A DNA stretch of 64,000 nucleotides from a virus: positions 53,503 through 117,502 of IMG/VR virus record IMGVR_UViG_3300043411_001314, one strand, 5' to 3'. This document shows positions 6,706 to 64,000 of the stretch, piece after piece (position 1 is the stretch's first letter; each line of letters begins with the position of its first letter). The position numbers were made by a program, and so were the translations under genes. The notes under the pieces are model-generated. The model had not been told where the DNA came from, made no database searches, and worked only from the letters and a program-made list of their open reading frames with translations.

Positions 6706-9700
6706 GTGGAGACTTACAAGCTGAACTTCAAGGTCGGGATCGACAAGACCGACGTCACCGCGTTCATCAGGGACATGAATCGTGCCGCCGCCGAGGCGTC
6801 ATCTTCCATCGCCAAGGCTGCTTCCGGCGCCCAGGCGAAGGTGGGCGCCGGAGCTCCTGGCGCTGTAGCCACCCGGGGTATTGCCGACATCGAAGGTCAG
6901 CTGCGCGGCAGGGTTGGCTTGGCCGAGCGGTCCGGCCTGTTCTCCACCGGCCAAATACGGGACCTTCAGGGTGCCGTCAACGAGATCGTCCGACTTGCCA
7001 GGTCGGGGGTCCGCAAGGACGTCACCGCCGCTGGGCGCAACCTCACGTCCGACCTCGGTGCGTCGGGCGGTAAGGCGTACCGGTCGCGTGTCGGCGGCGT
7101 CGAGCAGTCGGTCTACCGTCGCGCCGAGGCCGAGGCCCAGGCCGCCGAGGCCGCCACTCAGGCCGCCGCCGAAGAGGGGCGACTGAACGCTTGGCGTAAG
7201 AACGCCCGGGCCCGCCTTCAGGGGTCCATCTCCACCGAGAACGCCGCCCGCGCCGAGTCGGCCAAGGCCGCCGAGCTCGAGGCCGCTGCCCGACTGAAGG
7301 AGGCCAATGAGGCGGAGAAGCAGGCCGCAGCGGCCAAGGCCAGGGCTGACAAGGCCCGCCCCATCTACGGCCCCCCGAAGCCGCCGAAAAGCGGGGTCGC
7401 CCCAGGTGTCGCCGCGGCCGAACGGCAGGCCAAGGAGCTCGCCGCTGCCCAGGCCAAGCTCGACAGGGAGCAGGCCAGGGCCCAGGCCAAGGCCGCCGCC
7501 GCCGCCTCTGAGCCGGAAGATGCCGTCCTGAAGAGGTTTGGTCTCCTCCCAGAGGGGGGGCTGGACTATTACTCCAAGGTGATGGGTGGCCCTGGCCCTG
7601 GCCTTGGTTGGGCTCGCCTCAACGCCGGACCCACGTCGGCGCTCGATCGCTACCGCGACCTGAACACCGGCATCGGCCGTAACGAGTTCGCGAACAACAC
7701 CGTCCTCGATGGGGATGACAAGACCCTCGCCGAGATGTCGGCCGAGGCCCGCGCCAACCTGACCTCGCTTGAGCGGATGCGTCAGGCCACCGAGGAGCTG
7801 GCCAAGGCCGAGCAGTACCTGGCAGACCTCATGGGCCTGTCAAGCCGCGACATGTCCGGCAAGCTCCGCGCCGCCGCCGGGCCCGGTCGTCTGGCCGAAC
7901 TCCTGGAGCTCCGTGCGAAAAGGGAGGGGACCGCCGGGCTTCAAGACCTTGAGGGGTTTGAGGCCGCCGCCGACCAACGCCGGGCCAACGAGGTCAAGGA
8001 AGCCAAGAACAGGTACATCACCGACGACGACCTCGACGCCGCCGTCGGCGTGAAGGTGGAATCGGAGAGGCACACCAACGTCATCCGCGGCCGTGCCGCC
8101 GACGAGAAGCGCAGCAACCAGCGGCTGATCGAGGCCGACGCGGAACGAATCGTCGCGACCAACTTGGCATCCTCGGCTTCGAAGCGCATGGCTGCCGACA
8201 TGATGCGTGCGGCGGGGGTGGGACGCGAACGTGAGGCGACGCCGACGCAGCGTTTCCAGGCGTGGATCGCCAACCGCGGGGGCGGCGACAACCTGCCCCG
8301 CCCAGCCACCGACTTCATGCAGGGCAAGCAGCTGGCTGCTTCCCGCATCATGACCACCGCCTCCTTCGCCGCCTCTGGTGGCCTGCTGTACGGCGCCATG
8401 AGCCTCGGGTCCGACATCATGCGGGAGTCGACCGAGCTCCAGGTCGAGCTCGGGATCATCGAGTCCCAGATCAACTCCCTGGACGCCACCGCCAACAAGG
8501 TGTCGCTCGAGAAGCTCCGCGACGAGCTCCACAAGACGTCCGTGGCGTCGGGTGTGGAGATGAACGAGGTTGCCAACGTCACCCGCCAGCTCGCCGGGGC
8601 ATTCGCCGACCCGGAGACCGGGAACGCCAACTTCGCCCTCGCCCAGAAGGAGGCGGACGTCGCCCTGCGGTACTCGAAGATCTCTGGGATCCCCCAGCAG
8701 GAGATCACCGACTCCATGTCGGCCATCTCCCTGGCCTTCCGGGATGTCGACACCGACGTACCGCTTGGGTTCGAGCGGATTCTCGACACGGTCCTGGCGC
8801 TGGAGAACCGCTTCGGCGTTCTCAGCCCGGAGATCGTCAAGTTCACCGCCGATCTTGCCCCCCTCGGCAAGGAGCTCGGCTTCACCCAGGAGCAGCTGTC
8901 CGGCCTCGGCGCCGTCGCCCAGTCGCGGTCCGGGCGCTCCGGCACGGTGCTGTCCGAGCAGCTCGGCCGGATCCTGCCGTCCCTCCAGGACCAACAGAAG
9001 AAGCTGTATGAGCTGTTCAGCTTGAACGCAAACACCGAGGGTGCCGTTGGCGATCTGATGAAGGGGTTCTCGGAGGGTGACACCCCCGAGGTCCTGCGGA
9101 CCCTGGTGAAGAACTACGACAAGTTGACGAAGGAGCAGCAGAACGAGATGGCGTCTCTCGTCGGCTCCCGCCGCGAGGCCGCCACCTTCTACGCCCTGTT
9201 GGATTCGCCGAAGCTGACCGAGGATGTCCTCAACGGGGACTTCGTCGCCGGCGGTGAGTTCGAGAATCGCTGGGACAGCTACGAGCAGACCGTCACCCTG
9301 TCAACCCAGCGGATGCGTCGGGCGGTAGAGGAGTTCGGCCAGAAGCTGTTCGACGCTGGCATCGACGACCTGTTGATCAAGGGTGCTCAGTTCGGCACCG
9401 TCATAGCCGCCGCCCTGTCTGGCGCTGTCAGCTGGATGACCAAGCTGAACGACCTGATGGGTGGTCACCTGACCACGGTACTGCTCGCCGTGGGGGCGTG
9501 GAGAACCTTCGGGCCCTACGTCGCCAAGGCGGTGGCGGCGATGAAGGGATCAGCGGCCTTCGGCGGCCTCATGGGGCGGAGCGGAGCGGTTCCCGGGGCG
9601 GCCGGCCCCATGGTCGGAGCGGGGCCGTTCGGTGGCATGCTGTACGCCGCCCCCCCCGTCCAGGGCCCCCCCGCCCCGGGCACTCCTGGCGCCCCCCGCC

Positions 9701-12165
9701 AGCCCCTTCGTTCGAGAATCGGTGGCTCGGCCGTCCTGGGTCAACTGTCGACGGCCGTCGCCGGATATGCAGTCCTCGAGCTCGGCGCCGAGATCGACGA
9801 GGTCAAGAAGCAAATCGACGTCGCCCGGACGGATCTTCGGTCCAAGATCGCCGAGGCGCTTGACAGCGGGGTGACCGAGGAGGAGCTGCGCCGGCGCATC
9901 GACTCGGCACCCCAGTACGACTCCGGCCTCTTCACGGAGTGGAGCGGCATCTCGGGGATCAGCTCCGGGATCCCCCTGCCAAACGTCAAGAACATCATCG
10001 GCAAGATCTTCGGCGTGAACACGGACGCCAAGGCACCTGGACTCGAGGAGTTGGAGGGGGAGCTGACGGCTCGGGCGGCCGAGCGGCAGGTTGCGGAAGG
10101 CCAGGCCCTCATCGACGCATTCAATGAGGCATTCTCCAGTTCCGGAGAGAATGGCCTCATCGCTTCATGGGAAAACCTTGGGTTCAAGATTGACCGGGAT
10201 AAGGATCGGCTCCCCCCGGAAGTGAAAGCTGCCCTAGCTCTCCCGGGGATGGACAAGGTCGGCATCGACAGCGGTTTCTCAATGGACAACCTTGTCCAGC
10301 TGCTACTGCTCAGGCAGCAGAATCCGGACCAGAAGATCTACCAGCAGCTTCTGGACTTCATCATCAACCAGGCAAGCATGGACCCAGAGCTGTTGAAGTT
10401 GATCAACGCGGCGACGTCGGCGTTCGATGACAAGACGGCCAAGGACGCGGCCTCAGCTGAGCTCGAGACCGAGGTTAGCGAAGCTCGTACGGCGTTCGAA
10501 ACCGCCATGGGATCACTGGAGGCGGCGAACGAGGCCGGACGGGTGTCCGTGAAGCCACTGATGGACAGGATCGCTGAAGAGCGGGCGTTCTACGTGGAAA
10601 TGATCAACCGAGCCCGCGACGCCGGCAATGAGGATTTGGTCAAAGAGTACGAGCAGATGATCTACGAGCTCGACTCCAAGGCCACGGACATCTTCACCTC
10701 GGACACCGACACCGGGTCCGACATCCGCTCGCGCCTCCTCGAGCTCTCCGGCGTAGGAAACTCGGATCCGGGTGGTACGAGAGTCGAGCAAGCGCAAGGT
10801 GCCTATGACCGGATTGCTGAGGCCCAGGGGATCCTTGTTAGCGCCAAGGCCGAGAAGGCCATGGAGGTCCTGGAGGCCCAGCAGGAAGATCTTGACCAGC
10901 AGATCGCCGACGCCACCGACCCGGCGGAACGAGACCGACTCCTGGCTGAGAAGATTCAGGTGTCGGATGCGATGCGTACCGATCTGGTGAGGTCTCAGCT
11001 CCAGTCGGATCGGCCGGCAGAGATCCGCGACATGGTCGTGGACGCGCTCCAGATCAAGGTGGAGGAGGCGGAGGCTCTGATTGCCCAGGCCATCATCGCC
11101 ACCGACGAAATCAATGAGTCAATCCTGATGGCCGGCCTCGAAGCTCAGCGTCGTCAGCTCCAGGCGGCGATCAAGGCCCTGGGTCCTGCTGGGATCATGC
11201 CGTGGAACAAGAAGGGCAGCAAGCTGAGGGCCAGACTGGAGGAGGTGTTGGCGGCGATCGAGGCCCTCGGGGAGCTCGACAACCCCAACGTCATCAGCGA
11301 TCTCTCCGAACTCGGCGCCAAGGGTGGGGGTAAGAACGGCAAGGACACCGCGTCGGACGCCAACGCCAACGCCGAAGCCTACGGGGCCCTCCTGTCCGCT
11401 CAGCTGGCCCGGGATCCCGTGGCCCAGGCCCGTCAGAACCTGGCCAACGCCAACGCTGCCGTCGGCCGCGCCGACACCGAGGCCGCACGTCTCCAGGCCC
11501 TCGCCGGCCAGGTGTCGGCCCAGCACGCGCTCGAGGACGCGATGCAGGCCATGTGGGAGGCTCAGATCGACGTGGCCAACGCCATGTCCGAGTCGGTGGG
11601 TGATGTGGTGGCCGTGGCCAACCGCAACGCAGCAGTCGCCCAGGAGCGGCTGCGCATCGCCCAGTCGAACGGGACTGGCGGCGCCGAGATCTACGCGCTC
11701 CAGGCGGCGGCGATCCGGGCCCAGACGGAAGCGGTGGAGACGGCTCGCGGCGATCGCGTCGGGGACCTCGAGTACCTCTACGAGTTCGACAAGATCACCG
11801 CCGAGCAGTTCATCAAGTCGCTCCAGGCGGAGCTCCTCCTCATTCCCGAGGCCAACAAGAACGCCCGCCGGGAGATCGAGCGGCGGATCAAGGCTCTGCG
11901 CGACGAGATGTCGTCGAACATGAGCATGAACATCCCGTCGGAGATCACCCTGCCGACGCTGTACGAGGCGCGCCGGCTCAACTCGAACCGCGGTTCGGGT
12001 GGCCCGGCCTGGGGCACCTACAGCCAGCTGCAGTCGATCGACAACAGGATCGTCACGATCAACGTGTTCGAGTCCGGGGACACCCGCCGCACCACCAGGG
12101 CGGTGTCCGAGGCCATGGACGCCTCGCCGAGGTCCGGGTCGTTTGCTACAGGGGAGTGGGTCTGA
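6706..12165 (+). CDS. tape measure protein
   Basis: 1819 aa, Ala-rich helical, follows frameshifted chaperone. Confidence 0.93.
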   Translation: METYKLNFKVGIDKTDVTAFIRDMNRAAAEASSSIAKAASGAQAKVGAGAPGAVATRGIADIEGQLRGRVGLAERSGLFSTGQIRDLQGAVNEIVRLARSGVRKDVTAAGRNLTSDLGASGGKAYRSRVGGVEQSVYRRAEAEAQAAEAATQAAAEEGRLNAWRKNARARLQGSISTENAARAESAKAAELEAAARLKEANEAEKQAAAAKARADKARPIYGPPKPPKSGVAPGVAAAERQAKELAAAQAKLDREQARAQAKAAAAASEPEDAVLKRFGLLPEGGLDYYSKVMGGPGPGLGWARLNAGPTSALDRYRDLNTGIGRNEFANNTVLDGDDKTLAEMSAEARANLTSLERMRQATEELAKAEQYLADLMGLSSRDMSGKLRAAAGPGRLAELLELRAKREGTAGLQDLEGFEAAADQRRANEVKEAKNRYITDDDLDAAVGVKVESERHTNVIRGRAADEKRSNQRLIEADAERIVATNLASSASKRMAADMMRAAGVGREREATPTQRFQAWIANRGGGDNLPRPATDFMQGKQLAASRIMTTASFAASGGLLYGAMSLGSDIMRESTELQVELGIIESQINSLDATANKVSLEKLRDELHKTSVASGVEMNEVANVTRQLAGAFADPETGNANFALAQKEADVALRYSKISGIPQQEITDSMSAISLAFRDVDTDVPLGFERILDTVLALENRFGVLSPEIVKFTADLAPLGKELGFTQEQLSGLGAVAQSRSGRSGTVLSEQLGRILPSLQDQQKKLYELFSLNANTEGAVGDLMKGFSEGDTPEVLRTLVKNYDKLTKEQQNEMASLVGSRREAATFYALLDSPKLTEDVLNGDFVAGGEFENRWDSYEQTVTLSTQRMRRAVEEFGQKLFDAGIDDLLIKGAQFGTVIAAALSGAVSWMTKLNDLMGGHLTTVLLAVGAWRTFGPYVAKAVAAMKGSAAFGGLMGRSGAVPGAAGPMVGAGPFGGMLYAAPPVQGPPAPGTPGAPRQPLRSRIGGSAVLGQLSTAVAGYAVLELGAEIDEVKKQIDVARTDLRSKIAEALDSGVTEEELRRRIDSAPQYDSGLFTEWSGISGISSGIPLPNVKNIIGKIFGVNTDAKAPGLEELEGELTARAAERQVAEGQALIDAFNEAFSSSGENGLIASWENLGFKIDRDKDRLPPEVKAALALPGMDKVGIDSGFSMDNLVQLLLLRQQNPDQKIYQQLLDFIINQASMDPELLKLINAATSAFDDKTAKDAASAELETEVSEARTAFETAMGSLEAANEAGRVSVKPLMDRIAEERAFYVEMINRARDAGNEDLVKEYEQMIYELDSKATDIFTSDTDTGSDIRSRLLELSGVGNSDPGGTRVEQAQGAYDRIAEAQGILVSAKAEKAMEVLEAQQEDLDQQIADATDPAERDRLLAEKIQVSDAMRTDLVRSQLQSDRPAEIRDMVVDALQIKVEEAEALIAQAIIATDEINESILMAGLEAQRRQLQAAIKALGPAGIMPWNKKGSKLRARLEEVLAAIEALGELDNPNVISDLSELGAKGGGKNGKDTASDANANAEAYGALLSAQLARDPVAQARQNLANANAAVGRADTEAARLQALAGQVSAQHALEDAMQAMWEAQIDVANAMSESVGDVVAVANRNAAVAQERLRIAQSNGTGGAEIYALQAAAIRAQTEAVETARGDRVGDLEYLYEFDKITAEQFIKSLQAELLLIPEANKNARREIERRIKALRDEMSSNMSMNIPSEITLPTLYEARRLNSNRGSGGPAWGTYSQLQSIDNRIVTINVFESGDTRRTTRAVSEAMDASPRSGSFATGEWV

Positions 12166-12536
12166 TGGTTGTCAGGTGGACGTTCAGCGGGTCGTTCGGA
12201 TCGGGGCAGTTCCCGATCAACCCCAAGAGGGGCGCCCTCCCGCAGCGGGAGAAGAACGTCAACGTCTCGTCGCAGGCGACGTCGCCCTACGCGAACCCGA
12301 TCATCTTCGAGGGTCGTGAGAACCCGTCGATGTTCCCGTTCGAGGGCTCGATCATCAGCGAGTACCACTACAACTTCATGGTGGCCTGGTTCGAGTCCAC
12401 GCAGACCTGCTCGGTCACCGACGACCTCGGCAACTCGTTCGACCTGTACCTGACCAGCTTCAAACCGACGCGCAAGAACAGACACAACCACGACTGGGCC
12501 ATGGACTACACCGCCGAGGCGGTGATCGTCGGATGA
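12165..12536 (+). CDS. minor tail protein (distal-tail-like)
   Basis: TGATG coupling to tape measure, beta-rich. Confidence 0.6.
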   Translation: MVVRWTFSGSFGSGQFPINPKRGALPQREKNVNVSSQATSPYANPIIFEGRENPSMFPFEGSIISEYHYNFMVAWFESTQTCSVTDDLGNSFDLYLTSFKPTRKNRHNHDWAMDYTAEAVIVG

Positions 12537-16396: not shown

Positions 16397-17328
16397 TGAA
16401 GGTCCCAGAGAAGGACTGGGGATACTCCTTCAACCACCCCAAGCTCGTCCACCGCCACACCAACAAGTTCAGGGCGACCCCCCTCCCCGGGCAGCTTGAC
16501 TCGATTCCCACAGAGGGCGGCTGGCATGAGGAGTGGTTCTGGACGAACCCGGGTGAAGCGTTCGAGTATGAGTGGGTGGTCCCGGCCACCGTGGAATGGG
16601 TCTATGTGTTCGGCGCTGGCGGCGGATCCAACGACACACAATCGGTGGCCGGTGCAACGTTCGGGATGTTTGTGAAGCCTGTTACCCCCGGGTCGACTAT
16701 ATCTGTCGTCGTCGGATGCTCTGGCAACCTCGACGATGCCGGTCTACCCGACGGCGGCCCCCCTGGTTTCGGTGGGGATGCGCTCGCCTACGGGGGAGGG
16801 GGTTCGACGACTATGTCGGATGGTGGTGGAATCCTCTATGTGGCGCCTGGCGCTGGAGGTAACACCATCATCCCTGGTGGTGGCGGCTCCGTCAACTTGT
16901 CTTGGACCTGGTGGGATCCATCGCCTTTGTCATGGATTGGGTCCTCAATGGTGAACCCGAACCCGATAACCCCTTCCGTCCCGATCGAACAAACTTTGGA
17001 TTCCTACTCGAACGGTGCCCCCGGTTCGGGGGCGGTCGGCGGTGCCGGCGCCGACTGGGTTCTCAGCGGGGACGGCAACCACCTCGCCGGCGGCGGCGGA
17101 GGGGGAGGGTACGGCGGCGGCCCTGGCGGCCCAGTCTACAAGGGCCGACAGGGAGGCTTGTACTGGCATTATGCCAACGGCGGTCGGGCCGGCCGCCCCC
17201 ACGTGGGTGGCGACGCCACATATGCGGGCGCCCCATTCACTGAACTGGTCAACGGGACCCCCCTATACTTGCCGTACACGTCCTACAACGCTGGGTGCGG
17301 GTACCTTTACCTTCGATGGCTTGAGTGA
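16396..17328 (+). CDS. glycine-rich tail fibre / receptor-binding protein
   Basis: TGATG coupling (MKVPEKDW...); GAGGG and GGGGGGYGGG tracts. Confidence 0.7.
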   Translation: MKVPEKDWGYSFNHPKLVHRHTNKFRATPLPGQLDSIPTEGGWHEEWFWTNPGEAFEYEWVVPATVEWVYVFGAGGGSNDTQSVAGATFGMFVKPVTPGSTISVVVGCSGNLDDAGLPDGGPPGFGGDALAYGGGGSTTMSDGGGILYVAPGAGGNTIIPGGGGSVNLSWTWWDPSPLSWIGSSMVNPNPITPSVPIEQTLDSYSNGAPGSGAVGGAGADWVLSGDGNHLAGGGGGGGYGGGPGGPVYKGRQGGLYWHYANGGRAGRPHVGGDATYAGAPFTELVNGTPLYLPYTSYNAGCGYLYLRWLE

Positions 17329-17338
17329 GGAACGTCTG

Positions 17339-17836
17339 ATGGCCAATGATCCCGAAGCCGAGTTCCGCGAGTCCATGTACGGCCACGCCACGAACACGCC
17401 GACAGCAATCCACGAGTCCACCACCAAGTGGCTGGACACCGTGCACGCAGGTGGCATCGGCTTTCAGGCCCGGCCCCAGCAGCCCGTCGGCGTGGTGGAC
17501 CTGGAGCATCGAGCCAAGGATCTGGCCGCCGAGTTTGGCATCCCCACCCCGGGCCTCTCCGGCGTCCGGTGGGCGCGCCTACCGCGATCCTGGGGCCGGT
17601 GCGAAGAGGACAACACCATCCTGATCGCCGACCACGCCGCCAAGGTCCCGGCATGGGTGCTCGACTCGGTCATCATCCACGAGCTCGCCCACCTGTCCCA
17701 CCGCGACCACGGCCCCGAGTTCGAGGCCATCACCGCCCTGTACCCCTACACCGATCAAGCCCATGGCTACATCCTCTCCGTCCAGGACAGGGAGTGGTCG
17801 ATCAAGCGCCCGCCCAAAGGACCCCGCCATGTATGA
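17339..17836 (+). CDS. YgjP/M48-like zinc metallopeptidase
   Basis: WGRC...VIIHELAHLSHRDHGPEF (HExxH plus downstream His). Confidence 0.75.
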   Translation: MANDPEAEFRESMYGHATNTPTAIHESTTKWLDTVHAGGIGFQARPQQPVGVVDLEHRAKDLAAEFGIPTPGLSGVRWARLPRSWGRCEEDNTILIADHAAKVPAWVLDSVIIHELAHLSHRDHGPEFEAITALYPYTDQAHGYILSVQDREWSIKRPPKGPRHV

Positions 17837-60782: not shown

Positions 60783-60843
60783 CGTGGCCTCCTTTGGGTG
60801 ATGGGATCATTCCCCGGCCGGAGCCGGAGAAAGGTCACATCCG

Positions 60844-61116
60844 CCAAACGATACGAGCCTTCACCAAACGATATGAGCCGACACGTTCGGCGGTCCGCCC
60901 TGCTGACCAGGTGAACGGGGTGCGATGGGTCACCTTGCGCCACCTGAAGTGGCATGAACGATACGAGCCACGGTCACTCCGCACCCGGCCATCCCGGATA
61001 TGAGGGGATGGGCGTGATGCCTGTTGTGGTAACCGTGTTGGCCCGCTCGAAAGCTAGGGGTGATACCGCAAGAACCGAGTCCGGCCAAACGATAGGACGG
61101 ACCGCCAAACGATATG
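60844..61116. repeat. five direct CCAAACGATA(YGAGCC)-type boxes
   Basis: Copies at 60844, 60864, ~60954 (degenerate), 61085, 61105. Confidence 0.8.
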
Positions 61117-61123
61117 TCGTTGT

Positions 61124-61666
61124 GGTCCCAACCGCCCTGGGGCACCCCCAACCTTACGGATGGGGATAACCCGACGAGCTACTACAGGTCGTTCTTGCTG
61201 AGGATGCGGGGGCCGGAGGACGACGCACCACGGATGCAGCCGTCGATGTTGTACGTCGACGGCCCCATCTCGGTGAACCGCACCTGCAGGACCTTCTCGC
61301 CGTAGCCGTCGATGGTGACCTTGCCGGAGCCGCGGACTCGCCGCTGCCCCTTCTCCGTCACGTCCAGCTTCAGCGGGATGGTGACCCCACCGACCGAGAC
61401 GGCCTTCGGGAGCTCCGAGATGACCTCGGAGCTCACGTTCACGCCGTACTTGTTGTAGTACCGCGTGCCGTCGGCCTTCCGGTTGGTGATGCCCCAGTAG
61501 GTGTTGCCGTTGCGAGCCGTCAGCTGACGGAGCGGAAGGACGTCACCCGTGTTGGTCGTCACCTCGATGACCTCGGTGTTGTTGCTCATTGGACTGCTCC
61601 TTTTGGCACCTCCAGGGGCCCTGTATTGGGCCTGGTGGCTGGTGATGCCCCAGAGCGGTCGGGACC
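61124..61666 (-). repeat. 30-bp imperfect inverted repeat enclosing ORF 61182-61589
   Basis: 61124-61153 vs 61637-61666, 25/30 identical; 4 of 5 differences are G-U pairs on the minus-strand RNA. Confidence 0.85.
61182..61589 (-). CDS. hypothetical beta-rich basic protein
   Basis: AAAAGGAG RBS, strongly biased codons, 135 aa. Confidence 0.85.
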   Translation of the reverse strand: MSNNTEVIEVTTNTGDVLPLRQLTARNGNTYWGITNRKADGTRYYNKYGVNVSSEVISELPKAVSVGGVTIPLKLDVTEKGQRRVRGSGKVTIDGYGEKVLQVRFTEMGPSTYNIDGCIRGASSSGPRILSKNDL

Positions 61667-61670
61667 GTTC

Positions 61671-62240
61671 GTGAAGTCCGGGTGGCTTGCCATCTGACCG
61701 ACTCCGCCCCTTCCAAGCCCGGGTAGGTTCTCTTCCCTAAGCGAGGGGGTGCGTGAGCCAAGGGGTCGGCAAGCGGCCCTTTCTCCACTCCTGGTACTTC
61801 ACACTTCCCGTCTCCTCCCGATGTCTCCAAGGTTTCCCGATGCCAGGGGTGGCAGCTGAAGGTAAGGACCCTTCGTCAACTTGCCCCGTAGGGCGCGTAA
61901 ACACACTGCCCCTGACGCCTCGACCCATTCCGAGCCGGGTTGGTAGGTAGTTTCGTACCAGGTCGATTGCTCGGCCCCAGGTAGCTTCCGGGTTAGCTCT
62001 CAAGCAATCTTTCGGATCGGCGTAGTGTCCTCGCCGTCCTCAAACCCTGCGATGATCGAGACCTCAGGTATGGCACACCTGTTCTCCTCGAGGTGCCCGG
62101 TGTCCGTTGCCGGAGATGGGTTGACCTCAAAGCGGGTGGATCTCGCTTCGCACGACCGGGCTTGTCTCTGCCTCGGTGTAAAGGGGATTCGCCCTTGCCT
62201 GGCACGGACCCAGGTTTAGGGCTAGCTGGTCTCTTGCTAC
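61671..62240 (-). ncRNA. candidate large structured non-coding RNA (~570 nt)
   Basis: No credible ORF; more than 15 nested helices with G-U pairs, GNRA and UACG tetraloops and A-rich linkers on the minus strand. Confidence 0.65.
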
Positions 62241-62408
62241 CGCTCGACGTCGAGCGTCGAACGGACCAGCACGGCACCGGCACCACTCGACGTCGAGCGT
62301 CGAGCGGCTGGCACCGGCACCGGAGCCGCCGGAGCGGCACCGGCACCAGCACCAGCCAGCAACCACACAATCCGGCAAGCGAGCGACCGGCTCGACCGTG
62401 CCGTAACA

Positions 62409-62500
62409 ATCGGGACCCGATCCACCATGAAACACCATGAAAGTTTGTGAGTTTCGTAATGGTTTCGTAACGTAAACGTGAGGTTTCGTCACAGTTCGCG
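62409..62500. promoter_or_regulatory. AT-rich divergence point with short phased repeats
   Basis: CACCATGAAA x2; GTTTCGT at 62451, 62462, 62483; strand switch. Confidence 0.5.
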
Positions 62501-62549
62501 GACTAGAGTGGCGCTTGCAAGTCACCCACCAGCCAGGAAGGCACCAGCC

Positions 62550-63932
62550 ATGACAACCACCAGCACCAGGACCACCAGCAAGCGAGGCTCCGGCAAGGCT
62601 CGACCGGAGCGGCTCCGGCTCGACGTCGAGCCGGTGCCGGAGCACTGGCCAGCCGCCAGCAAGTCGAGCACCCTCGGGGAGCACGTCGCTTGGGTGCCGA
62701 GCACTGGCCAGCGCTGGCACGGCACCGACTCGACGACCCCGGACGGCGCGGCCATCGTCGGGTGTCACTTGCCGTGGCCACTGGACATGACGGGGAGCAA
62801 GCGAGTCTCGACGGCACTGGCTCGGAAGTTCGTCGGTGTCCTCTCGACGGACGTCCGACCGGAGCGACTGGAACAACTCGGCACACTGGCTCAATGGCAG
62901 CTTGCCGGAATCGGTGCCGTCACCGTGATCCGAGCACGTCGAGCCGGAGCGAGCGACCAGGACATCGCGCTTGCCGTGGCGAAGGCATGGCCAGAGGTGG
63001 CGCGAGCGCTCACCACGGCGCGCCAGCGCTCGGATGCTCGGAAGAACACAACGGCACGCGGCGAGCGCGGTCGAGCGGCTCGCGCCGTCGTGACGGCGAC
63101 CGCTTGCCGGTGCCGTCCCGACTCGGACGGCACCGTCCGGCGGCACCGTTGCATCCTGGCCATGCTCCGGCGCCCACTGGCCAGCACGTCGACCGCTCGA
63201 CGCTCGACCGCTCCGGTCGCCATCGTGCCGGTCGAGCACCGGAGCCAGTGGCAAGCGCTCCGGCTCGACGTCGAGCGGCTCCGGCTCGACGTCGAGTCGG
63301 CACGGTCGAGCGTCGAGCGCTGGCACGGTCGAGCCGGAGCGGCTCGCTCGCTGCTGGTCGACGTCGAGCACCAGGACTCGACCGCTCCGGCTGGCACGGT
63401 CGAGCACGTCGAGCGGCTCCGGCTCGACGTCGAGCGGCTCCGGCTCGACGTGCTCGCGACGGACCAGGACGTCGAGCGGCTCCGGCAAGCGGTCGAGTCG
63501 AGCGAGCCGGTCGAGCGCTCGACGTCGACGCTCCGGCTCGACTCGCTCGACTCGCTCGACTCGCTCGACGTCGAGCGTCGAGCGGTCGACGTCGAGCGGC
63601 TCCGGCTCGACGGCATCCGGCTCCGCTACCGGAGCAAGCGGCTCGGCAAGCTTGCCGACTCGCTCGACGTCGAGCGGCTCCGGCTCGCTGGCACGGTCGA
63701 GCCGGAGCGGCTGGCTCCGGTCGACGTCGAGCACCAGGACGTCGAGCGGCTCCGGCTCGACGTGCTGGCCAGTGAGCGAGCCGAGCGGCTGGCTCGGCTC
63801 CGGCTCGGCTCGCTGGCCGGTCGCTCCGGTGCTCGACGTCGAGCGCTCGACGCTCGACGTCGAGCGCTCCGGCTCGACGTGCTGGCCAGCGGCTCCGGCA
63901 CCGGCTCGACCGTGCTCGACTCGCTCGACTGA
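62550..63932 (+). CDS. hypothetical protein with VERLRLD repeats
   Basis: AGGAAGG RBS, ATG, terminator after stop; N-terminal half protein-like. Confidence 0.55.
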   Translation: MTTTSTRTTSKRGSGKARPERLRLDVEPVPEHWPAASKSSTLGEHVAWVPSTGQRWHGTDSTTPDGAAIVGCHLPWPLDMTGSKRVSTALARKFVGVLSTDVRPERLEQLGTLAQWQLAGIGAVTVIRARRAGASDQDIALAVAKAWPEVARALTTARQRSDARKNTTARGERGRAARAVVTATACRCRPDSDGTVRRHRCILAMLRRPLASTSTARRSTAPVAIVPVEHRSQWQALRLDVERLRLDVESARSSVERWHGRAGAARSLLVDVEHQDSTAPAGTVEHVERLRLDVERLRLDVLATDQDVERLRQAVESSEPVERSTSTLRLDSLDSLDSLDVERRAVDVERLRLDGIRLRYRSKRLGKLADSLDVERLRLAGTVEPERLAPVDVEHQDVERLRLDVLASERAERLARLRLGSLAGRSGARRRALDARRRALRLDVLASGSGTGSTVLDSLD

Positions 63933-63956
63933 CTCGACTCGACGTCGAGCCGGAGC

Positions 63957-63987
63957 GGCCCCCGGGGGTTTCCCCCGGGGGCCTTTT
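63957..63987 (+). terminator. intrinsic terminator
   Basis: GGCCCCCGGGGG-TTT-CCCCCGGGGGCC-TTTT. Confidence 0.8.
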
Positions 63988-64000
63988 CCGGTCTAGTTTG

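What the first reader, a model, noticed from the sequence alone, without database searches (positions are those of the whole stretch)
61124..62240. Candidate new RNA-protein system: ~570-nt structured RNA followed by a 135-aa ORF
Seen: 61671-62240 has no credible CDS in an otherwise gapless genome, and its minus strand folds by eye into many nested helices. Examples are GUGAAGU/ACUUCAC (61796-802 with 61671-77), GCUUGCC/GGCAAGC (61768-74 with 61685-91), CCCCUU/AAGGGG, GUCAGGGG/CCCCUGGC (61909-16 with 61842-49), GAUUGCUUG/CGAGCAAUC (62001-09 with 61965-73), GCCCGGU/ACCGGGC (62155-61 with 62095-101), CGGCG/CGCCG and GAAGG/CCUUC. Loops include UCCG-GCAA-CGGA, GCCC-UACG-GGGC and GG-GAAA-CC, with A-rich linkers and a possible pseudoknot CUGGUAC/GUACCAG. 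It runs directly into a beta-rich, basic ORF with a strong RBS. Known: phages carry large ornate RNAs of unknown function (ROOL, GOLLD); I see no tmRNA, RNase P or group I/II core motifs. Inference: an undescribed large ncRNA co-transcribed with a partner protein at the head of the leftward operon.
Basis: partly seen in the sequence, partly recalled or inferred. Interest (0 to 1): 0.85.

Follow-up and report, generated by a model that had tools for sequence, protein, structure and literature searches.

The report
Long untranslated leader before phage gene
The flagged stretch is a real gene-free region in front of the first gene of a phage operon, probably transcribed as a long leader RNA, but nothing yet shows it is a new ornate RNA working with the neighbouring protein.

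Summary
The window is the last 64 kb of a 117.5-kb uncultured phage contig. Its DnaB resembles that of Acidimicrobiales, so that is the likely host group.

Confirmed:
- 61590-62549 is non-coding and lies in the longest stretch of the contig without codon periodicity.
- ORF 61182-61589 is a real, basic, all-beta gene with an AAGGAG ribosome-binding site.
- No Rfam family matches.

Not confirmed:
- The 570-nt body does not fold better than neighbouring coding RNA.
- Host RNase P and tmRNA score no better on the same test, so the test is uninformative.
- No homologous locus could be fetched, so covariation and the RNA-protein link remain untested.

Clear RNA-level signals lie at the edges:
- A 29-pair helix (dG -61.8 kcal/mol, 4 G-U pairs) brackets ORF135.
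- A hairpin cluster sits at 62150-62450.

Best reading: this is a long untranslated leader of the leftward operon, with leader-trailer clamping or processing of the ORF135 mRNA. The closest analogue is the ~500-nt Pleft non-coding RNA of mycobacteriophages L5 and D29 (PMC5712189). The scan has noted structured phage early leaders before, on other DNA. Interest is moderate to low.

The parts
62421..62549 (.). Low-G+C divergent control region. It holds three ACGAAAC copies (about 62451-62489) and two tandem TTTCATGGTG copies (62423-62442), read on the minus strand. I take it as the seat of the leftward and rightward promoters; this is an inference and neither is mapped.
   Evidence: G+C per codon position is 0.46-0.58 at 62409-62558. 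One search gives the sequence; these motifs occur nowhere else in the contig; no sigma-70 consensus promoter by the tool's criteria.
62240..62420 (-). Promoter-proximal hairpin cluster of the presumed leftward transcript. It includes two TCGACGTCGA palindromes of the array to the right, and GGUGCC/GGUGCC hairpins that use G-U pairs.
   Evidence: four 150-nt windows at 62150-62449 give mean z of -4.90 on the minus strand and -2.89 on the plus strand; extending 61590-62240 to 62420 moves the minus-strand z from -3.77 to -5.57; repeat family D4.
61667..62239 (-). Unique-sequence, non-coding body of the leader.
   Evidence: no codon periodicity; no Rfam family; no internal repeats; folding is not distinguishable from coding controls, and the test has little power; no match of this body in 301 Acidimicrobiales genomes beyond a few weak short hits.
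61637..61666 (-). 5' arm of the leader-trailer helix. It ends 47 nt upstream of the ORF135 start codon.
   Evidence: 29 pairs, 4 of them G-U, with 61153-61124. This is the best long-range helix on the minus strand outside the palindrome array; duplex dG is -61.8 kcal/mol, against -44.4 for the same place read on the plus strand.
61182..61602 (-). Ribosome-binding site AAGGAG (61602-61597) and ORF135 (ATG at 61589, stop at 61184-61182). It encodes a 135-aa basic all-beta protein with a Gly-rich C-terminal tail ending in Leu.
   Evidence: GC3 is 0.94; 59 representative clusters at E<=0.001, nearly all 117-170 aa; alignment; pLDDT 90.6; no Pfam or PHROG family; no convincing fold match.
61124..61153 (-). 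3' arm of the leader-trailer helix. It starts 29 nt downstream of the ORF135 stop codon.
60800..61123 (-). Second non-coding stretch, downstream of ORF135, with CCAAACGATA boxes. It is the subject of another note and forms the other flank of the ORF135 island.
   Evidence: flat codon-position G+C at 60879-61118; repeat family D11. table 4: the relative in run X2 has one extra 14-nt box-containing insert behind 60842.
62550..63932 (+). Rightward reading frame (ATG 62550, GGAAGG 8 nt upstream) that runs into the TCGACGTCGA palindrome array. It defines the right border of the divergent intergenic region. Whether its repeat-filled part is translated is open.
   Evidence: ORF 62478-63932. CCAGGAAGG at 62533; repeat families D1-D10; no Pfam family.

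Best explanation
The stretch 61590-62549 is the divergent control region between a rightward frame (ATG 62550) and the leftward gene block. Its leftward transcript would be an untranslated leader of roughly 0.65-0.85 kb for the first gene, ORF135.

Shown:
- The region is non-coding.
- It has a strongly folding hairpin cluster at its promoter-proximal end, favoured on the minus strand.
- A 29-pair helix joins 61666-61637 (leader) to 61153-61124 (trailer), so the ORF135 message is enclosed in a long double-stranded stem.

Inferred:
- Transcription starts in the low-G+C part, around 62420-62500.
- The leader-trailer stem is cut or clamped by a double-strand-specific RNase (RNase III type). This would release a compact ORF135 mRNA with protected ends and a separate 0.6-0.8-kb leader RNA.
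- The 570-nt body is either a stable by-product or an early non-coding RNA. The closest case is the Pleft RNA of mycobacteriophages L5 and D29. Its folding would mainly keep a long untranslated RNA from being terminated or degraded.
For: - Non-coding status.
- Position at the head of the leftward block, with a strong ribosome-binding site and no U-tract terminator before the ORF.
- Leader-trailer helix: 29 pairs with 4 G-U. It is the top non-repeat long-range helix on the minus strand of the 117.5-kb contig. Duplex dG is -61.8 kcal/mol, against -55.1 and -50.4 for the next best and -44.4 for the plus-strand reading.
- Hairpin cluster: z of -4 to -6 on the minus strand against -2.3 to -3.9 on the plus strand.
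- Precedent: in L5, D29 and StarStuff a ~500-bp non-coding region between the early promoter Pleft and the first leftward gene gives the most abundant phage transcript. It is processed into 100-400-nt species and is toxic to the host (PMC5712189; passages, section 11).
- In run X2 a related strain differs at 4 of 369 and 6 of 262 positions in the leader, and at 14 of 878 across ORF135 and its trailer. Further downstream genes differ at 20 of 400, 25 of 350 and 25 of 316 (table 8).
Against: - No transcript ends, strand or abundance were measured. All four runs laid were contigs, and the RNA-library run X6 was itself picked because it holds this stretch, so its cover says nothing.
- The X2 comparison has the same selection bias, because runs were found by near-identity to 61100-62500. 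Phage mosaicism could also produce the pattern.
- No promoter was found by the consensus scan.
- The contig is about 80% complete. Its right end lies in a repeat array, so transcription could enter from further right.
- The helix is top-ranked but not far ahead of the next candidates.
- The body of the leader shows no folding signal above coding controls.
Confidence: 0.5

Rival explanations
1. 61671-62240 encodes a discrete, undescribed large structured RNA with its own conserved architecture, and it works together with the ORF135 protein as an RNA-protein system.
For: - Non-coding, unique sequence with no Rfam family.
- Full-length z of -2.13 on the sense strand against -0.03 antisense. This lies inside the range of genuine RNase P and tmRNA from the likely host clade, which give -1.65 to -3.11 sense and -1.73 to +0.47 antisense.
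- Low divergence in the X2 relative.
- The neighbouring protein is basic, conserved and of unknown fold.
Against: - The same z and asymmetry are reached by ordinary coding windows: 3 of 15 for z and 1 of 15 for asymmetry.
- Local windows in the middle of the region have positive z.
- Tetraloop hairpins are not enriched.
- No homologue was obtained, so there is no covariation and no test that ORF135 relatives carry such an RNA.
- The leader-trailer helix separates the upstream RNA from the ORF, which fits processing better than a joint particle.
Confidence: 0.12
2. The region works mainly at the DNA level. It would be part of a replication origin, partition site or repressor-binding hub continuous with the TCGACGTCGA palindrome array, with the 570 nt acting as spacer or unwinding/binding DNA.
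For: - It adjoins about 1.7 kb of palindrome-rich repeats. Two of these palindromes lie at 62244-62296, inside the presumed leader.
- A low-G+C stretch with local direct repeats lies at 62421-62549.
- The transcription direction switches here, and the cumulative GC skew levels off here.
Against: - The 570-nt body holds no iterons or repeats.
- The G-U-dependent strand bias of the bracketing helix (17 kcal/mol) and of the hairpin cluster points to RNA (or single-stranded DNA) on the minus strand rather than to duplex DNA sites.
- An origin and a leader are not mutually exclusive.
Confidence: 0.2
3. The 570 nt is functionless spacer, for example a mosaic junction or a fully decayed gene. Only the flanking elements matter.
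For: - No folding signal above controls.
- No family match.
- No homologue found anywhere searched.
Against: - Phage genomes of this density rarely keep about 0.6 kb of useless DNA (general knowledge).
- There is no residual codon periodicity of a decayed gene.
- Divergence from the X2 relative is low, at 1.1-2.3%, although that figure is biased by how the run was found.
Confidence: 0.15

Closest known systems
Pleft-proximal non-coding RNA of Cluster A mycobacteriophages (L5, D29, StarStuff; Dedrick et al. 2017, PMC5712189)
   Same: - A non-coding stretch of about 500 nt lies between the control region and the first gene of the leftward operon, near the right end of the sequence.
- There is no conserved ORF.
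- It belongs to an actinobacterial phage.
- In L5 it is transcribed early and processed into smaller stable RNAs.
   Different: - There is no sequence similarity: blastn of 61100-62450 found nothing in 50,697 phage records.
- Transcription, abundance and processing are unmeasured here.
- In L5 about 90% of transcripts end before the first gene. Here a leader-trailer helix encloses the first gene instead.
- The first gene here belongs to a different, orphan family.
- The right end of this contig is not shown to be the genome end.
Leader-trailer processing stems of bacterial rRNA operons, and RNase III sites of phage early mRNAs (T7, lambda). This is textbook knowledge that I recalled.
   Same: A long, nearly perfect double-stranded stem of 29 pairs is formed by sequences before and after one functional unit. 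It is long enough for a double-strand-specific RNase.
   Different: - The enclosed unit is a 135-codon mRNA, not an rRNA.
- The host-type boxA block found in 6 Acidimicrobiia rrn leaders is absent from the phage: the best score is 9.3, against 36-40 for the true sites.
- Cleavage is untested.
Large ornate phage-associated RNAs (ROOL, GOLLD) and other large Rfam families
   Same: The size class (hundreds of nt), phage location and unknown function.
   Different: There is no covariance-model match even at E<=10. There is no evidence yet of a conserved architecture or of any relatives.
HK022 put RNAs and other promoter-proximal antiterminator RNAs (recalled; also named in earlier scan notes found)
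   Same: A cluster of stable hairpins lies immediately downstream of the presumed early promoter (62240-62420).

Membership tests
Any Rfam 15 family (including tmRNA, RNase P, group I/II introns, ROOL, GOLLD, HEARO, OLE, riboswitches, ribozymes) | Covariance-model match at or near the family's gathering score | tested here: not met
   at gathering thresholds the window has only 6 tRNAs, none in this region; at E<=10 on 60800-62700 there are 7 hits. The best is E 0.33 (22.9 bits against a 47-bit cut-off), and all are miRNA or short-motif noise.
Cluster A mycobacteriophage Pleft non-coding RNA | Non-coding stretch of about 500 nt between the early leftward promoter and the first leftward gene | tested here: inconclusive
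   The non-coding stretch and its position ahead of the first leftward gene are shown. The promoter is not mapped, and the contig end is not shown to be the genome end.
Cluster A mycobacteriophage Pleft non-coding RNA | Sequence relatedness to the L5/D29 right-end region | tested here: not met
   blastn (word size 11) of 61100-62450 against 50,697 phage records gave no match.
Cluster A mycobacteriophage Pleft non-coding RNA | Very abundant, stable early transcript processed into 100-400-nt species | not testable with these tools
   Only contigs could be laid. No raw stranded reads were available.
rRNA-operon-style antitermination leader | boxA element of the host type in the leader | tested here: not met
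   a conserved 23-nt block is present in 6 rrn leaders from 5 Acidimicrobiia genomes; a weight matrix built from it scores at most 9.3 anywhere in the phage contig (true sites score 35.8-40.0), and none of the top 20 hits lies in 61590-62550.
rRNA-operon-style antitermination leader | Leader-trailer helix enclosing the transcribed unit | tested here: met
   29 pairs and dG of -61.8 kcal/mol, around ORF135.
RNase III-processed phage mRNA | Double-stranded RNA stem of about two helical turns or more flanking the message | tested here: met
RNase III-processed phage mRNA | Cleavage within the stem in vivo or in vitro | not testable with these tools
   No end-mapping data were available.
Single-stranded DNA-binding protein (OB fold with flexible C-terminal tail), considered for ORF135 | OB-fold core recognisable by structure comparison | tested here: inconclusive
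   the best VIA-align Z is 6.1 (5j0f_B, rmsd 3.6, 87 residues aligned), with 0 chains at Z>=8; 0 Foldseek matches at E<=0.001. No SSB appears among the rows shown; no PDB sequence match below E 0.1.

The most novel reading that the evidence does not exclude
ORF135-family proteins of uncultured actinobacterial phages are each preceded by a conserved structured RNA of about 0.6 kb. After excision by the leader-trailer stem, this RNA acts as an abundant early non-coding RNA, possibly bound by the basic all-beta protein. That would be a new phage RNA-protein module.
Probability: 0.1. Interest if true: 0.8.

Novelty: new member of a known kind. Interest (0 to 1): 0.35.

Why it matters
Long non-coding leaders at the head of phage early operons are turning up repeatedly, in L5 and D29 and in several earlier notes of this scan. 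Their function is still unknown.

This one belongs to a phage whose DnaB points to Acidimicrobiales, and nothing similar is present in the GenBank phage records searched. It also combines three features:
- a long leader;
- a rRNA-like leader-trailer stem around a single small gene;
- an orphan protein family (59 clusters) with a confident but unmatched fold.

If the stem is a processing site, it would be a simple, testable way for a phage to over-express its first gene. As it stands, the case for a new ornate RNA is not made.

Tried and rejected
**1. Fetching homologous loci.** Every route failed.
- The search for related loci with ORF135, or with alignments of it, found nothing in viral contigs, metagenome contigs or genome contigs.
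- P0009 in viral contigs found nothing.
- The neighbouring 235-aa gene and a 613-aa structural gene found nothing in viral contigs.
- tblastn of ORF135, P0032, P0018 and P0023 against GenBank phages gave no match.
- A 20-nt piece of the RNA found nothing in viral contigs.
- An ORF135-family profile matched 0 of 31 IMG/VR records that share a DnaB relative, 0 of 5 Acidimicrobiales genomes or MAGs, and 0 of 401 Acidimicrobiia genomes.
- Without a genome in which the query is known to match, these blanks show little.

**2. Host DNA.** blastn of 61100-62450 against 301 Acidimicrobiales genomes matched 153 of them. All hits were weak and short (best E 4e-8). Nearly all fell on the GGTGCC-type low-complexity part (query positions 90-210) or inside ORF135 (query positions 1020-1240). 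I rejected them as homologues.

**3. rRNA-style boxA.** The lead came from earlier scan notes. I rejected it.

**4. GNRA/UNCG tetraloop enrichment.** Not found.

**5. Folding z-scores.** They proved uninformative after negative controls and positive controls.
- The tool's own figure for 61590-62240 was z -2.29 with 20 shuffles. My script gave -3.77 with 60 shuffles.
- The gap reflects shuffle sampling and small energy differences.

**6. RNA-library run X6.**
- Exact-match contigs lie at 61045-61119, 61212-61469 and 61747-61924.
- I do not use this as evidence of expression. The run was chosen for holding this stretch, and DNA may be present in the library.
- Parts of the stretch without cover in X3, X4 and X6 mean nothing.

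**7. ORF135 function.**
- Pfam, PHROGs, PDB sequences, Foldseek (pdb and viral), VIA-align wide and the ESM Atlas gave nothing usable.
- P0040, a 613-aa hit with 5 stretches, is a repetitive sequence. I set it aside as spurious.

**8. A 35-codon frame, 61693-61586.** It has GGAG upstream and an ATGA overlap with the ORF135 start. I rejected it as a gene because its GC3 is about 0.63, by my count.

**9. Genome-wide promoter motif.** The repeats at 62421-62549 occur nowhere else in the contig.

**10. Literature.**
- Two searches found the L5/D29 paper and nothing on this RNA. No search by sequence is possible in the paper library.
I did not see the right-end alignment of PMC5712189 (its Fig. S1), which may bear on how conserved that RNA is.
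Full report
**Context.** The window is the last 64 kb of a 117,502-bp IMG/VR virus contig, classed as linear and about 80% complete. It has about 66% G+C.
- The phage's DnaB-like helicase is 74-79% identical to DnaB of Aquihabitans and other Acidimicrobiales. The host is therefore probably an Acidimicrobiia bacterium.
- Neither the region nor ORF135 matches any of 50,697 GenBank phage records.
- Near-identical DNA occurs in freshwater, wastewater, biogas and biofilm runs of several studies.

**What is at the coordinates.**
- ORF 61182-61589 on the minus strand is a genuine gene. G+C at the three codon positions is 0.54/0.45/0.94, and AAGGAG lies 7 nt before the ATG.
- From 61599 to 62558 no 150-nt window shows codon periodicity; the spread is 0.02-0.20, against 0.44-0.56 inside ORF135.
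- By a 180-nt measure, 61519-62688 is the longest non-periodic stretch of the whole contig, at 1170 nt. The next is 930 nt.
- ORFs that can be read there give no Pfam family.
- On the right, a plus-strand frame starts at ATG 62550 behind GGAAGG and runs into an array of TCGACGTCGA palindromes.
- The region is therefore a 960-nt divergent intergenic region, and ORF135 is the first gene of the leftward block.

**Is the folding more than chance?**
- Negative controls: fifteen 570-nt coding windows of the same strand average -1.19 (sd 0.81), and 3 of 15 are at or below -2.13. Their strand differences average -0.21 (sd 1.46), and 1 of 15 is at or below -2.1.
- With 150-nt windows the region averages -0.88 (n=10), against -0.95 for 54 coding windows. 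Its middle has positive z.
- GNRA/UNCG-capped hairpins are not enriched.
- Positive controls from three Aquihabitans genomes do no better. RNase P RNA gives -3.11, -1.70 and -1.95. tmRNA gives -1.65, -1.71 and -2.79. A 570-nt piece of 16S gives -0.98.
- At this G+C content the test cannot tell a real structured RNA from mRNA.

**Known families.** cmscan against Rfam 15 gives nothing in the region at gathering thresholds. At E<=10 it gives only chance-level hits.

**Relatives.**
- ORF135 has 3 close relatives (52-66% identity) and 59 representative clusters at E<=0.001 among 1.84 billion proteins. Nearly all are 117-170 aa.
- The 30 clusters I looked up come from metagenome assemblies only, and the only name given is 'hypothetical protein'.
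- Every other route to a homologous locus failed.
- Covariation, and the question of whether family members carry such an RNA, could therefore not be tested.
- One related strain, in run X2, differs at 4 of 369 and 6 of 262 positions in the leader and at 14 of 878 across ORF135 and its trailer. Downstream genes differ at 20 of 400, 25 of 350 and 25 of 316, and 62277-62477 differs at 10 of 201.
- This hints at constraint, but the run was selected for near-identity to this very stretch, and phage mosaicism could give the same pattern.
- The positions of the differences were cut from the output.

**RNA-level signals at the edges.**
- 61666-61637 pairs with 61153-61124 through 29 pairs, 4 of them G-U. 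This is the best such helix on the minus strand outside the palindrome array.
- Its duplex energy is -61.8 kcal/mol. The next best are -55.1 and -50.4, and the same place read on the plus strand gives -44.4.
- The arms lie 47 nt before the start codon and 29 nt after the stop codon, so the helix encloses exactly the ORF135 message.
- A hairpin cluster at 62150-62449 gives z of -4.9 on the minus strand and -2.9 on the plus strand.
- The low-G+C part, 62421-62549, holds local direct repeats found nowhere else in the contig. It is where I place both promoters, by inference. The consensus scan found none.

**The protein.**
- The AlphaFold2 model, built from a 41-sequence alignment, is confident (pLDDT 90.6, pTM 0.80). 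It has twelve strands and a flexible Gly-rich tail ending in a nearly invariant Leu.
- Foldseek finds no match at E<=0.001 in the PDB or BFVD.
- VIA-align against 48,161 chains peaks at Z 6.1, below the level the tool calls meaningful.
- The ESM Atlas gives nothing usable.
- Its function is unknown. Nothing shows that it binds RNA.

**Mechanism and comparison.**
- The best-supported picture is a long untranslated leader of the leftward operon.
- Its promoter-proximal hairpins and leader-trailer stem would serve transcript survival and processing. A double-strand-specific RNase cutting the stem would free a clamped ORF135 mRNA and a separate 0.6-0.8-kb leader RNA. These steps are inferred, not shown.
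- The closest described case is the ~500-nt non-coding RNA made from Pleft ahead of the first leftward gene in mycobacteriophages L5, D29 and StarStuff. It is the most abundant phage transcript, is processed to 100-400 nt, and is toxic to the host (PMC5712189; passages, section 11). There is no sequence similarity to it.
- Earlier scan notes on other phages suggested rRNA-style antitermination leaders. I extracted the conserved boxA-like block from six Acidimicrobiia rrn leaders and found no copy in the phage. That part of the analogy fails, while the leader-trailer helix holds.
- The boxA consensus sequences of E. coli and B. subtilis come from passages of PMC13753749. The statement that the mycobacterial CL2 motif is a putative boxA comes from passages of PMC10218544.

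**Verdict.** The stretch is most likely a new example of a known kind, a long non-coding leader or early RNA of a phage operon. I give about 10% to the reading that it is a discrete new RNA tied to the ORF135 family.

Noticed in passing
L002:6514-7839 (genome 40513-41838) and loci L048-L127: The phage DnaB-like helicase is 74-79% identical to DnaB of Aquihabitans and other Acidimicrobiales genomes and MAGs. This suggests an Acidimicrobiia host and a recently acquired host-type helicase.
   Followed up: partly
window 61406-61438: A perfect 10-bp inverted repeat with a 5-nt loop lies inside the ORF135 coding sequence. 150-nt windows over it give z of -4.7 on the minus strand and -8.7 on the plus strand, the strongest local fold outside the palindrome array. 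cmscan aligned it, at chance level, to the F6 sRNA hairpin.
   Followed up: no
window 60842 (run X2): The related strain in run X2 carries one extra 14-nt insert containing a CCAAACGATA box behind 60842 (table 4). The copy number of the box array therefore varies between strains.
   Followed up: no
window 16519-17448: This is the second-longest stretch of the contig without codon periodicity, at 930 nt. I did not examine it.
   Followed up: no
window 9445-9479 with 12165-12199, plus strand: A 31-pair long-range complement (7 G-U; dG -42.2 kcal/mol) has its 3' arm starting at the stop of the 1819-aa frame 6706-12165. It is weaker than the ORF135 bracket and may be chance.
   Followed up: no
window 61586-61693, minus strand: A 35-codon frame has GGAG 8 nt upstream, and its TGA overlaps the ORF135 ATG (ATGA). 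Its GC3 is about 0.63, so it is probably not a gene, but it could be a coupling or leader peptide.
   Followed up: partly
L002:311-2251 (genome 34310-36250); L002:2220-3893; L144:3701-4399: A 646-aa protein ends in a Rho_N domain (E 1.6e-5). Next to it is a 557-aa protein with RNA-ligase PHROG hits. There is also a PhageMetallopep protein. Most large structural proteins have no Pfam or PHROG family at all.
   Followed up: no
window 62240-64000: About 1.7 kb is built from TCGACGTCGA palindromes and 21-nt units, open in five reading frames. It runs to the contig end, so the assembly probably broke inside the array.
   Followed up: partly
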